A DNA stretch of 64,000 nucleotides from the human T2T-CHM13v2.0 reference genome, Homo sapiens. The stretch lies in the NCBI RefSeq assembly GCF_009914755.1, contig NC_060938.1; one strand, written 5' to 3'. Each line of letters begins with the position of its first letter. Within the stretch, counting starts at the first letter, position 1. The notes under the pieces are model-generated. The model was given only the letters and a program-made list of their open reading frames with translations. It was not told the origin of the DNA and made no database searches. The position numbers and the translations under genes were made by a program. Of the stretch, positions 33,140 to 56,104 are shown in pieces.

Positions 33140-33897
<758 letters not shown>

Positions 33898-41250: not shown

Positions 41251-41574
41251 ATGCAAAATTCTCACATGGATGAATACAGAAATTCTAGTAATGGCAGCAC
41301 AGGCAACAGTTCAGAGGTAGTGGTAGAACATCCTACTGATTTCAGTACTGAGATTATGAACGTTACAGAAATGGAACAGTCACCTGATGACTCTCCCAAT
41401 GTGAATGCATCTACAGAAGAAACTGAAATGGCAAGTGCTGTGGACCTTCCAGTGACGCTGACAGAAACAGAAGCAAATTTCCCTCCAGAATATGAAAAAT
41501 TTTGGAAAACTGTAGAAAATAATCCTCAGGATTTTACAGGCTGGGTATATTTGCTTCAATATGTAGAACAGGAG
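41251..41574 (+). CDS. PRPF39: PRPF39 exon 2 coding part (MQNSHMDEYRNSS...YLLQYVEQE); exon starts at 41232
   Basis: ttccacAG acceptor 41230-41231, ATG at 41251 with A at -3, GAG|GTTAGT donor. 108 codons. Confidence 0.95.
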
Positions 41575-41900
41575 GTTAGTAACTATTAAAATGGTATCAG
41601 AAGGGACAAATTAATCAAGTCATTAATTTATAATGAAACAGTAGACCTTATTGTTTATGATTAAAATTGACTCATAATTTTCAAATGAAGTTGAATAACA
41701 TTAGGTAGCTACATTTTTAGCTTTGAAAATAGCTTACAGCTTTTGTATGTTGTAGAGAGTCAGTAGTGTCAAAGCTTAATGTTTTGTAATAATTGAGGTG
41801 TAAATGTGTGTGTAAAATTGCTGAAATAAAAAGTTGGCAAAATTAGTTCCTTCTGTTTCAATTGCGTTTAGAAGAAAAAGGGGGCTGCTGCCTGTGTAGG

Positions 41901-41987
41901 TTTTTTTTTTTTTTTTTTTTAAGTGAAAGCAAGTTTATTAAGAAAGTAAAGGAATAAAAGAAGGGCTGCTCCATCGGCAGAGCAGCC
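41901..41987 (-). mobile_element. Short polyadenylated MER41-LTR R-region-like retroposed insert
   Basis: Minus strand reads ggctgctctgccgatggagcagcccttcttttattcctttactttcttAATAAActtgctttcactt-A20; degenerate TSD. Confidence 0.7.
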
Positions 41988-42113
41988 TGCATGTGGAGTT
42001 TTTAAGCCTGCCATTTATTATTATTTTTTTAGATAATAACGTTTGAAAGGAATAATAAATATTTTTTTGACAGAAATTTCCACAATATTTAAATACTGTT
42101 TTATTTTTATCAG

Positions 42114-42239
42114 AATCACTTGATGGCTGCCAGGAAGGCATTTGACAGATTTTTCATACACTATCCGTATTGCTATGGTTACTGGAAAAAGTATGCAGAC
42201 CTTGAAAAGCGGCACGACAACATTAAACCATCAGATGAG
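42114..42239 (+). CDS. PRPF39: PRPF39 exon 3 ([42 protein letters not shown]), HAT repeat
   Basis: atcAG acceptor and GAG|GTGCGT donor. 126 nt; contains the Prp39-family [12 protein letters not shown] motif. Confidence 0.96.
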
Positions 42240-42897
42240 GTGCGTACATCACTGAATAAACTTATCTCCAATAGGTACTGTAAGCCAATTAATAACAAAA
42301 CAAAGATTTTTTTTTTTTTTTTTTTTTGGCTGGCAGTACCTACCATTTATGGTCAAACAATTTTTATAGGGTATTTATTTGCATTTGTCACTCTTGTGGC
42401 ATTTGTAGCTAATATTTTCTCTCTTTGTTGGCAGGTGCGTTAAACCTCTACAGTTTGTCAAGCTTTGCAGTGCAAGCCTCTGTATTACACTGCAGCTTAA
42501 CAAGTAGGGCAGGGCTTTTCTCTCACTTACATTTATTTCTCATTTTCCAAACAATATAGTTGGTTTGCTAGTCACATTTGCTACGTCTTATTGCATTTTT
42601 GGTCAGACGCTGTCATTGATGCTCTAATGGGTCTGTGCCCTATGGTCTGTAACCCAAAGCCTGCCCACACAACCCGGTCAGAATGCAGGGACTGCTGCGC
42701 TTTGAAGATCAAGACTCTGCACGTGGGGATCAGAACATTGCCATGTTCTATCCAACCTCCACCCAAATGGTAATGGTAGATTATTTAAACAAAATTCCAG
42801 TAATTAGTATTTCTAAGGTTCACCGGATAACACAGTGTTGCCTCTCTGTTAAGAAATAATTAAATATTTGAAGTACAGTTTGCTGTTTTCTTCTTAG

Positions 42898-43016
42898 GTT
42901 TATCGGCGGGGGCTTCAGGCAATACCTCTTAGTGTTGACCTTTGGATACATTATATAAACTTCTTAAAAGAAACATTGGACCCTGGTGATCCTGAGACAA
43001 ACAATACAATAAGAGG
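42898..43016 (+). CDS. PRPF39: PRPF39 exon 4 ([40 protein letters not shown])
   Basis: ttcttAG acceptor and AGG|GTATGT donor. 119 nt; HAT motif [10 protein letters not shown]. Confidence 0.95.
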
Positions 43017-44121
43017 GTATGTGGAACATTGATACTGAAATGTTTTTTATGATATAAATAATTATTCTGATGTTGATAATAGAGCTCATGAAAGCTAAGC
43101 TGGAAGTTTAACTTCTATTCCATTGTTAAAAAAATGATACATGTAATAAACTTAAGCTTTATGATTTGAAAATGCAGATAATAAAGCCCTCCTACAGTCC
43201 ATGCCTCTTATGTCCCCAATTCCACTCCTCAAGGTTAATAGCTTGGTGTGTGTTCTTTCAGATATATGTATAAGTACATGTTTATGCGTATGCTTTCATA
43301 CTGCTCTTTGACTTTTTTTTTTTAATAATGTTTGGGAATCTCTTCCTGCCATATTTTTTAACAATTACAAAAAGTATTTTATAATACTTTATAAAAAGTA
43401 TCTTATAAGCCAAAGTACTCTATTTCACCAAATCCTTATTTATAGGAAATAATCAGTGCTACAGTGAACATCTCTGTACAAGTCAATATTTTTTGTAGAA
43501 TGCACTAGAAATGGAACTTCTGTCAAAGGGAACACACAGCTCAGTTTTATCAAATGTTCCTTCAAAAATGGTATCGATTCTAAACTCCCACAGTGTATGA
43601 AAATAATCATTTTCCCACAGCTGTGCCACATTTTTTGTTTGTTTTACCTCCAGTGGCATCTCTTTTAATTTGTTTATGTCTTGATTGCTCATCCTGGTTT
43701 ACCATGTTCTCATATGCTTATATAAGCCATTTTTTAAATTACCTGTTGATATTATTTGCTCATTTTTCTATTACATTATCTTTTTCTTGATTACAGTAGT
43801 TTGCTAATGTACTTGTTTTTGGTTTTCAAAAAAAAGCATGTGCATATTGCTTAAGAAGTTAGCTAATGTTAAACTGCTTGTAACAAAAAGTACCACCTCC
43901 ACCTCCCTTCAAATATTTTAGCTCTTTCTTCTGGTATTTTCCACCATGTGTTTAACAGTAGATCTATGTTGCTTTCTTTCTTTCTCTGTTAGCTGTAGAC
44001 ATTATGTATCTGTTACGGTAAGTGAGAATTTTAACCCACTTACACTTTGTTTTCTCATTCCTTATCTTTCCAATATAGCTACAGAATAGGTTTCAATAAT
44101 CAGCTTCAGTATTTTTTTTTA

Positions 44122-55791: not shown

Positions 55792-56104
55792 GTAAGAAAA
55801 TCATGTGCTCTTAAACTTGAATATATTATAAACATTGATCTAGTGACTAACCTTTTTTGTACTTCTGTTGAATGTTGTTCATATAACTATATCTGTTGCA
55901 TTAGGAGATGGTCTGCTTGCAACCAGATTTGACTGCTGCATATGCCAACCTCGTTGCCTCTCTTCGTCCTTCCTTACAGAAACTAGTCTAGTGGTTCAAT
56001 AAAGGTGCTGAATGGGTTTAAAAATAGAATTTTATCGTTCTGTCACAAATTTAATGGCTTGTTCAACTGTAAATTATTCAGTATTTCCTCTTTTCTGTAT
56101 GTAG

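What the first reader, a model, noticed from the sequence alone, without database searches (positions are those of the whole stretch)
42408..42509. Candidate poison exon in PRPF39 intron 3 that regenerates the exact upstream 5' splice site (recursive-splice-type switch)
Seen: branch-like GCTAAT (42408-42413), a pyrimidine tract and a CAG acceptor (42432-42434) are followed immediately by GTGCGT. The genuine exon 3 donor is GAG|GTGCGT, so splicing exon 3 to 42435 recreates the identical 9-mer donor. If the competing donor CAA|GTAGGG is used instead, a 69-nt exon (42435-42503) is included that reads GTG CGT TAA, a stop at codon 3. Established: recursive-splice (RS) exons have this AG-GT layout and often carry premature stops. 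PRPF39 is the homologue of yeast U1 snRNP Prp39/Prp42, and I recall NMD-coupled splicing being reported for it. Inference: productive versus NMD mRNA may be decided by a two-step choice between 5' splice sites, which would suit autoregulation of a U1-associated factor.
Basis: partly seen in the sequence, partly recalled or inferred. Interest (0 to 1): 0.82.

Follow-up and report, generated by a model that had tools for sequence, protein, structure and literature searches.

The report
Annotated PRPF39 poison exon, recursive-type start

Summary
Exon 3 ends GAG|GTGCGT. A CTAAT branch motif, a pyrimidine tract and CAG (42432-42434) are followed by GTGCGT, then an in-frame TAA. CAA|GTAGGG lies 69 nt further on.

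By a rough scoring matrix the 42434 acceptor equals the real exon 4 acceptor. It is the best back-to-back acceptor/donor site in 528 kb of strand sequence scanned.

The acceptor is already annotated. A GENCODE-derived catalogue (Mironov 2023) lists two "annotated poison exons" in this intron. They map exactly to window 42435-42769 (335 nt) and 42607-42769 (163 nt) and share a weak donor at 42770.

In GTEx both events vary strongly (psiH-psiL 0.38 and 0.42) but show no drop in gene expression ("significant" = 0).

The published NMD-coupled, self-regulated PRPF39 exon is a different one, in intron 8, 13.5 kb downstream.

The long exon meets the sequence definition of a putative "RS-exon" (Blazquez 2018), as 3.6% of human exons do. 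Use of the rebuilt donor, its conservation and any autoregulation could not be tested. Verdict: a real, annotated poison exon; the recursive switch is plausible but unproven.

The parts
42237..42245 (+). Constitutive exon 3 donor GAG|GTGCGT (exon ends at 42239)
   Evidence: Recalled-frequency matrix score 9.14, the 6th highest of 17 annotated donors in the window.
42408..42434 (+). 3' splice site of the long poison exon: CTAAT branch-like motif (A at 42412), pyrimidine tract and CAG
   Evidence: Acceptor score 10.47, against 10.44 for the exon 4 acceptor. Annotated as an acceptor in the GENCODE-derived catalogue, where junction hg19 45565431->45565627 equals window 42239->42435.
42435..42440 (+). 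GTGCGT, the first six bases of the long poison exon. After ligation to exon 3 it rebuilds GAG|GTGCGT, a putative recursive 5' splice site.
   Evidence: [quoted passage not shown] Its use as a donor was not tested.
42441..42443 (+). In-frame TAA, the third codon of the exon
42435..42769 (+). Long annotated poison exon (335 nt), hg19 chr14:45565627-45565961
   Evidence: Mironov 2023 Tables S2 and S7. All three internal coordinates fall on AG| or |GT in the window.
42607..42769 (+). Short annotated poison exon (163 nt), acceptor CAG at 42604-42606, in-frame TAA at codon 7
   Evidence: Acceptor score 4.89.
42770..42775 (+). Shared weak donor ATG|GTAATG of both annotated poison exons
   Evidence: score 4.66. 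Junction 45565961->45566090.
42504..42509 (+). It is not annotated.
   Evidence: Score 6.10; 96 of 2766 intronic GTs score as high. Absent from the two PRPF39 events in the catalogue.
42600..42750 (+). GC-rich island (53-56% GC, against about 30% in the flanks) forming the body of the 163-nt exon, just upstream of the weak donor
   Evidence: 4 CpG in 163 nt.

Best explanation
The site is the 3' splice site and first bases of a real, already annotated unproductive ("poison") exon of PRPF39 in intron 3.

Three acceptors compete for the exon 3 donor: 42434, 42606 and the normal 42897. Use of 42434 or 42606, together with the weak donor at 42770, inserts 335 or 163 nt. Either insert places a stop codon 3 or 7 codons after exon 3, far upstream of ten further exon junctions. 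The mRNA should therefore be an NMD target or encode a stub of about 150 residues.

I think the productive-versus-unproductive choice is made mainly at this ordinary exon-definition and acceptor-choice step. Because the long form begins with GTGCGT, its junction with exon 3 rebuilds exon 3's own donor. That makes it a putative RS-exon by sequence. Re-splicing from that donor to 42606 or 42897 is possible, but it is probably a minor route held back by the exon junction complex.

Shown: the motifs, the annotation, and variable usage in GTEx. Inferred: NMD sensitivity, the competition model, and any recursive step.
For: - Motifs and reading frame.
- The catalogue built from GENCODE v35lift37 NMD transcripts lists exactly two PRPF39 poison-exon events, both in the intron hg19 45565431-45566090. 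That intron is 658 nt, the same length as window intron 3. With a single offset, the internal coordinates fall on window 42435, 42607 and 42769, each at an AG| or |GT.
- Both events passed the paper's read-support and variability filter (2754 of 5271 annotated events passed). Their psiH-psiL values are 0.381 and 0.417 (header).
- The 42434 acceptor is as strong as the authentic one by my matrix and is by far the best internal acceptor in the intron; the next best scores 7.18.
- In introns under 1000 nt, conventional lariats were preferred over recursive ones (Hoppe 2023, passages).
- The exon junction complex represses rebuilt donors at exon junctions (Blazquez 2018, passages).
Against: - The rebuilt donor (9.14) is stronger by my matrix than either downstream donor (6.10 at 42504, 4.66 at 42770). 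According to Blazquez 2018, citing Sibley 2015, that is the condition for efficient recursive removal. The recursive route could therefore be larger than I assume.
- The two catalogued events share the 42769->42898 junction. By my reading of the psi definition, the 0.38 value for the long form may partly reflect the short form. I saw no junction-specific count for 42239->42435.
- In GTEx neither event goes with lower PRPF39 expression: z for gene expression is +1.32 and +1.25, against the paper's threshold of z < -5, and "significant" = 0. A regulatory effect on mRNA level is therefore not shown.
- The RefSeq annotation in the hub table has no such exon.
- NMD sensitivity of these isoforms was not seen in any source I could read.
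Confidence: 0.6

Rival explanations
1. A true recursive-splicing switch; this is the reader's idea, adjusted to the annotated exon. Exon 3 is first joined to 42435. The rebuilt GAG|GTGCGT then competes with the weak downstream donors (42504, 42770). When the rebuilt donor wins, the exon is removed and productive mRNA or the 163-nt form results. When the exon junction complex blocks it, the poison exon stays. The level of the complex, or of U1/PRPF39, would set the outcome.
For: - The junction rebuilds a 9-mer identical to a constitutive donor.
- The rebuilt donor scores higher than both downstream donors.
- This layout matches the published definition and competition rule for RS-exons. [quoted passage not shown]
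- PRPF39 favours weak donors in GC-rich surroundings (Espinosa 2023), and the exon body is GC-rich.
Against: - No direct evidence for it was found. PRPF39 is absent from the supplement files held for Blazquez 2018 (3 files, 36,433 characters) and for Hoppe 2023 (3 files, 70,725 characters). Only one paper, an unrelated one, holds both "PRPF39" and "recursive splicing".
- 3.6% of human exons (6,837) meet the same sequence definition, and most are simply included.
- In short introns recursive lariats were the minority.
- The identity with the upstream donor could be chance; such a coincidence is expected 0.81 times per 17 introns.
- Conservation could not be tested.
Confidence: 0.25
2. One reading: the relevant poison exon is the 69-nt piece 42435-42503, defined by the donor CAA|GTAGGG.
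For: The 42504 donor scores higher by my matrix (6.10) than the annotated 42770 donor (4.66). A 69-nt exon is a typical size for exon definition (my knowledge).
Against: It is not among the PRPF39 events drawn from GENCODE v35lift37; only exons ending at 42769 are listed. 96 of 2766 intronic GTs in the window score at least as high, so the site is unremarkable. I saw no junction data for 42503->42607 or 42503->42898.
Confidence: 0.1
3. Splicing by-product with no regulatory role. A strong decoy acceptor close to a constitutive donor is used at some rate. The products are degraded or remain nuclear, and the GT after the AG is a coincidence.
For: - No negative association with PRPF39 expression in about 8,500 GTEx samples.
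- The demonstrated feedback on PRPF39 runs through the intron 8 exon.
- Back-to-back acceptor/donor motifs at or above the median scores of annotated sites occur about once per 66 kb of strand sequence: 8 in 528 kb, counting this site.
Against: A psiH-psiL of about 0.4 is large for noise. Two annotated exon forms share one donor inside a GC-rich island. A site pair this strong is rare.
Confidence: 0.3

Closest known systems
Annotated RS-exons repressed by the exon junction complex (Blazquez et al. 2018; examples named there include aCADM2, KPNA1, MRPS5 and AP1G2)
   Same: An annotated exon whose first bases, joined to the preceding exon, rebuild a 5' splice site. That site competes with the exon's own downstream donor, and here the rebuilt donor is stronger than the downstream one.
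   Different: Use of the rebuilt donor is not shown here. Most of the published exons are constitutive coding exons, whereas this one is an alternative, stop-containing exon. MaxEntScan, the published scoring method, was not run.
Cryptic RS-exons at recursive sites in long vertebrate genes (Sibley et al. 2015; recalled, and as cited in Blazquez 2018)
   Same: The AG|GT layout, an exon following the site, a premature stop in the exon, and a binary choice between the rebuilt and the downstream donor.
   Different: Those sites lie in introns of hundreds of kb: median 547 kb, minimum 172 kb, in the table of Hoppe 2023. This intron is 658 nt. Here the exon is annotated and seen in GTEx rather than cryptic.
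The published PRPF39 poison exon in intron 8 (De Bortoli 2019; Schmok 2024; Nat Commun 2026, PMC13408128)
   Same: Same gene, a stop-containing alternative exon, and a weak donor with C at +4 (AAG|GTGCTG at 56005).
   Different: It lies 13.5 kb downstream, where the published primer maps to 55975-55997. It has experimental support: a cycloheximide response, dependence on TRNAU1AP and PRPF39, and minigenes. Schmok 2024 called it unannotated. The intron 3 exons are annotated but unstudied.
Poison exons in splicing-factor genes generally (Lareau 2007 and Ni 2007, as cited)
   Same: A stop-containing cassette exon in a gene for a splicing factor.
   Different: Those exons are ultraconserved and shown to autoregulate. 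Neither property was testable here.

Membership tests
Poison (NMD-type) cassette exon | Bounded by splice sites that are used in real transcripts | tested here: met
The catalogue derived from GENCODE v35lift37 NMD transcripts lists 42435-42769 and 42607-42769.
Poison (NMD-type) cassette exon | In-frame premature stop more than 50-55 nt upstream of a later exon junction | tested here: met
   TAA at 42441-42443 in the long form and at codon 7 in the short form. Ten further junctions lie downstream (hub table).
Poison (NMD-type) cassette exon | Isoform rises when NMD is blocked | not testable with these tools
   No read data were available. The published cycloheximide test concerns the intron 8 exon.
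Poison (NMD-type) cassette exon | Inclusion goes with lower host-gene expression | tested here: not met
   Mironov 2023 Table S7: significant = 0, z for gene expression +1.32 and +1.25, against a threshold of z < -5.
RS-exon (Blazquez 2018 definition) | The junction with the preceding exon rebuilds a 5' splice site above the threshold that 90% of canonical donors pass (MaxEntScan 5.52) | tested here: met
   By proxy only. The rebuilt 9-mer is identical to the constitutive exon 3 donor. My recalled-frequency matrix gives it 9.14, the 6th highest of 17 annotated donors in the window. MaxEntScan itself was not available.
RS-exon (Blazquez 2018 definition) | The exon is first spliced to the preceding exon | tested here: met
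   Annotated junction hg19 45565431->45565627, which equals window 42239->42435. No read count specific to this junction was seen.
RS-exon (Blazquez 2018 definition) | The rebuilt donor is actually used (a lariat starting at the exon's first base, PRPF8 crosslinks, or more skipping on EJC knockdown but not on UPF1 knockdown) | not testable with these tools
   PRPF39 is not in the supplement files held for Blazquez 2018 or Hoppe 2023. Those files are small and may be incomplete.
RS-exon (Blazquez 2018 definition) | The rebuilt donor outcompetes the exon's downstream donor (needed for efficient recursion) | tested here: met
   9.14 against 6.10 (42504) and 4.66 (42770) by the proxy matrix. The rule is quoted.
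Classical vertebrate recursive site (Sibley 2015 type) | Located in a very long intron | tested here: not met
   Intron 3 is 658 nt. The published sites lie in introns of 172-875 kb (table).
Classical vertebrate recursive site (Sibley 2015 type) | The AG|GT site is conserved across vertebrates | not testable with these tools
   No vertebrate genome other than the window's own is held. The region is single-copy in that genome.

The most novel reading that the evidence does not exclude
PRPF39, a U1-associated factor that helps weak donors, senses its own dosage in two steps in intron 3. Exon 3 is first joined to a poison exon whose start rebuilds exon 3's own donor. The balance between that rebuilt donor, which the exon junction complex masks, and the weak, GC-flanked downstream donors, which PRPF39 favours, then decides between productive and NMD-bound mRNA. 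This would be a second feedback loop, recursive in type, beside the known intron 8 loop.
Probability: 0.08. Interest if true: 0.6.

Novelty: new member of a known kind. Interest (0 to 1): 0.3.

Why it matters
PRPF39 dosage matters. It shifts the use of weak donors, and with TRNAU1AP it controls RNase P/MRP-dependent RNA processing through feedback on an intron 8 poison exon. A second set of unproductive exons in intron 3 varies widely across tissues and has not been studied in any paper I could find, so it could be an extra control point. It would also be a convenient short-intron test case for whether a rebuilt donor is really used and whether the exon junction complex decides the outcome.

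If the rebuilt donor is never used, this is simply one of several thousand exons that happen to begin with a donor-like sequence.

Tried and rejected
- **Rfam scan of 41500-43100:** only two sub-threshold chance hits, so no RNA family.
- **Fold of 42400-42800:** z-score 0.07, no structure signal.
- **Repeat or duplication origin:** the 421-nt region matches only itself in the window's genome. The sequences after the two GTGCGT copies diverge at +7, so this is not a local duplication.
- **Literature searches:** PRPF39 with "poison exon", with NMD terms, with "recursive splicing", with "cryptic exon", and with EIF4A3 plus "exon skipping", plus the hg19 and guessed hg38 coordinates as text. No paper discusses the intron 3 exons.
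- **Supplements without PRPF39 or without useful PRPF39 data:** Blazquez 2018, Hoppe 2023, Schmok 2024, where only an antibody row mentions it, and the cryptic-poison-exon paper PMC11632617. That last paper concerns exons missing from current catalogues, per its abstract, so an annotated exon would not be expected there.
- **Sibley 2015:** could not be opened and is cited from recall and through Blazquez 2018.
- **Simulation of chance:** timed out and was replaced by an analytic Markov expectation.
- **Limits reached:** Zhang 2018 and the large NMD or EJC knockdown tables were therefore not checked and may bear on use of the site.
- **Not available:** MaxEntScan and any cross-species alignment.

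Full report
**1. Is the observation in the sequence?**

Yes. Searches show each element at the stated place:
- Exon 3 ends at 42239 and is followed by GTGCGT.
- GCTAAT lies at 42408-42413. Its CTAAT fits the yUnAy branch consensus, with the A 22 nt before the AG.
- A pyrimidine tract leads to CAG at 42432-42434.
- GTGCGT follows at 42435-42440, then TAA at 42441-42443.
- CAA|GTAGGG has its GT at 42504, which gives a 69-nt interval.

The coding parts before this point are 324 + 126 nt (hub table). Exon 3 therefore ends on a codon boundary, and the TAA is in frame.

**2. Is it more than chance?**

The hexamer identity alone is weak evidence. A first-order Markov model expects AG plus the intron's own donor hexamer 0.0018 times in intron 3. 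Summed over the 17 annotated introns of the window, the expectation is 0.81. In fact only intron 3 has such a match. AGGTGCGT occurs 3 times in the window against 0.32 expected, and the third copy sits in an antisense Alu.

The quality of the two abutting sites is more telling. I scored sites with a position matrix built from recalled, approximate human splice-site frequencies, so the numbers are rough.
- The 42434 acceptor scores 10.47, against 10.44 for the genuine exon 4 acceptor. 16 of 2930 intronic AGs score as high.
- The abutting donor scores 9.14 with exon 3's GAG and 10.18 in its own context. 6-7 of 2766 intronic GTs score as high.
- It is the only AG|GT in the window's 128 kb of strand sequence with both scores at or above 10 and 9. 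Two sites pass the medians of annotated sites.
- In 400 kb of flanking strand sequence, 6 sites pass the medians, 1 passes 10/9, and none reaches this site's scores.

Such motifs must still number in the thousands genome-wide, so the motif alone does not prove use.

The in-frame stop carries no weight. By my arithmetic a random 69-nt exon has one about two times in three.

**3. What is it?**

The decisive result came from the literature. Mironov et al. 2023 (NAR, PMC10123112) extracted unproductive splicing events from GENCODE v35lift37 transcripts labelled protein-coding or NMD (methods passage). Their Table S2 holds exactly two PRPF39 rows, both classed "annotated poison exon":
- junctions hg19 chr14 45565431->45565627 and 45565961->45566090;
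- junctions 45565431->45565799 and 45565961->45566090.

The outer pair spans 659, the same as window 42239->42898. With that single offset, the inner coordinates become 42435, 42607 and 42769. In one search each falls exactly after an AG (42433-34, 42605-06) or before a GT (42770-71), so the mapping is secure.

The exon it opens, however, runs 335 nt to a weak donor, ATG|GTAATG (score 4.66). A 163-nt form shares that donor. Both forms carry early in-frame stops. The RefSeq table supplied by the hub has neither exon.

**4. Usage**

Both events appear in Table S7 of the same paper. That table holds events surviving the filter for read support and variability in about 8,500 GTEx samples; 2754 of 5271 annotated events survived. 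Using the header recovered, the rows read as follows.

| Event | significant | psiH-psiL | Delta e_g | z (e_g) | z (e_l) |
|---|---|---|---|---|---|
| Long form (42435-42769) | 0 | 0.381 | +0.047 | +1.32 | -1.39 |
| Short form (42607-42769) | 0 | 0.417 | +0.172 | +1.25 | -1.33 |

Inclusion therefore varies a good deal between samples but does not go with lower PRPF39 expression; the paper's threshold is z < -5.

One caveat is my inference from the psi definition. The two events share the downstream junction, so the long form's psi may be inflated by the short form. I saw no count specific to 42239->42435.

**5.

- De Bortoli 2019 (passages) describes one alternative exon that is conserved between mouse and human and is a weak NMD target. 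Its product would lack the C-terminal dimerisation domain.
- Schmok 2024 (passages) calls it an unannotated poison exon driven by TRNAU1AP.
- The 2026 Nat Commun paper (passages) places it between exons 8 and 9 and shows cross- and self-regulation with minigenes.
- That paper's poison-exon primer (Supplementary Data 2) maps to window 55975-55997, 13.5 kb downstream of the finding.

None of these papers, in the passages I read, mentions intron 3. No paper in the library links PRPF39 to recursive splicing in a relevant way, and none cites the exon coordinates.

**6. The recursive-splicing reading**

Blazquez 2018 (passages) calls any exon that rebuilds a 5' splice site at the preceding junction a putative RS-exon.
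- 3.6% of human exons (6,837) qualify at MaxEntScan 5.52 or above.
- Most are kept because the exon junction complex masks the rebuilt donor.
- 26.8% of 1,105 HeLa-expressed examples were skipped more after eIF4A3 knockdown.
- Efficient recursion needs the rebuilt donor to beat the downstream donor.

Here the rebuilt 9-mer is identical to a constitutive donor. By my proxy it outscores both downstream donors: 9.14 against 6.10 and 4.66. Of the 13 annotated PRPF39 junctions plus the two poison-exon junctions, it is the only one that rebuilds a strong donor. The long poison exon therefore meets the sequence criteria.

The functional criteria could not be tested: lariats from 42435, PRPF8 crosslinks, and sensitivity to loss of the exon junction complex. 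PRPF39 is absent from the small supplement files held for Blazquez 2018 and Hoppe 2023.

Against a dominant recursive route:
- Hoppe 2023 found that in introns under 1000 nt conventional lariats outnumber recursive ones, and suggested stochastic use there.
- The classical vertebrate sites lie in introns of 172-875 kb (table). This intron is 658 nt.

**7. Other features**

- The body of the short exon is a GC-rich island, 53-56% GC against about 30% in the flanks. It lies just upstream of the weak donor. Espinosa 2023 reports that PRPF39-sensitive weak donors sit in GC-rich, A-poor surroundings. This makes PRPF39 dependence of the intron 3 exons a reasonable guess, but it is only an inference.
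- No RNA family and no unusual structure is present.
- The region is single-copy in the genome.

**8. Verdict**

The published PRPF39 autoregulation uses another exon. The recursive switch, its conservation and its regulatory value all remain open.

I put 0.6 on ordinary acceptor competition with at most minor recursion, 0.25 on substantial recursive control, and about 0.08 on a selected autoregulatory two-step switch. As a kind of thing it is a new, unstudied member of a known and populous class. Interest is modest.

Noticed in passing
window 55905-56006 (PRPF39 intron 8): The published, experimentally supported PRPF39 poison exon lies here; its qPCR primer maps to 55975-55997. A strong acceptor ends at 55979 (score 10.13), weaker ones at 55904 and 55926, and a weak donor AAG|GTGCTG starts at 56005. 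This would allow a 25-nt or a 100-nt exon, each with an in-frame TAG. It is absent from the RefSeq table and from the GENCODE-derived catalogue.
   Followed up: partly
window 42600-42750: A GC-rich island (53-56% GC, 4 CpG in 163 nt) inside an AT-rich intron forms the body of the annotated 163-nt poison exon, next to a weak donor. This resembles the GC-rich context reported for PRPF39-sensitive weak donors.
   Followed up: partly
window 42307-42327: A run of 21 T in intron 3, 68 nt after the exon 3 donor and about 110 nt before the 42434 acceptor. It could bind U-tract proteins. Not examined.
   Followed up: no
window 33252-33259: The third AGGTGCGT in the window lies in an antisense Alu in intron 1 (ACAG|GTGCGT), the kind of site known to be exonised from Alus. 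Not scored further.
   Followed up: no
window 42231-42250: One of the two guide RNAs used for the PRPF39 knockout in PMC13408128 (Supplementary Data 2) is, read by eye, the reverse complement of the exon 3 donor region. Edits there could also affect the balance between the intron 3 acceptors.
   Followed up: no
window 56231/56560 junction: The exon 9-10 junction rebuilds AGG|GTAATA (proxy score 4.02). This is the only other PRPF39 junction with a donor-like sequence, and it is weak.
   Followed up: no
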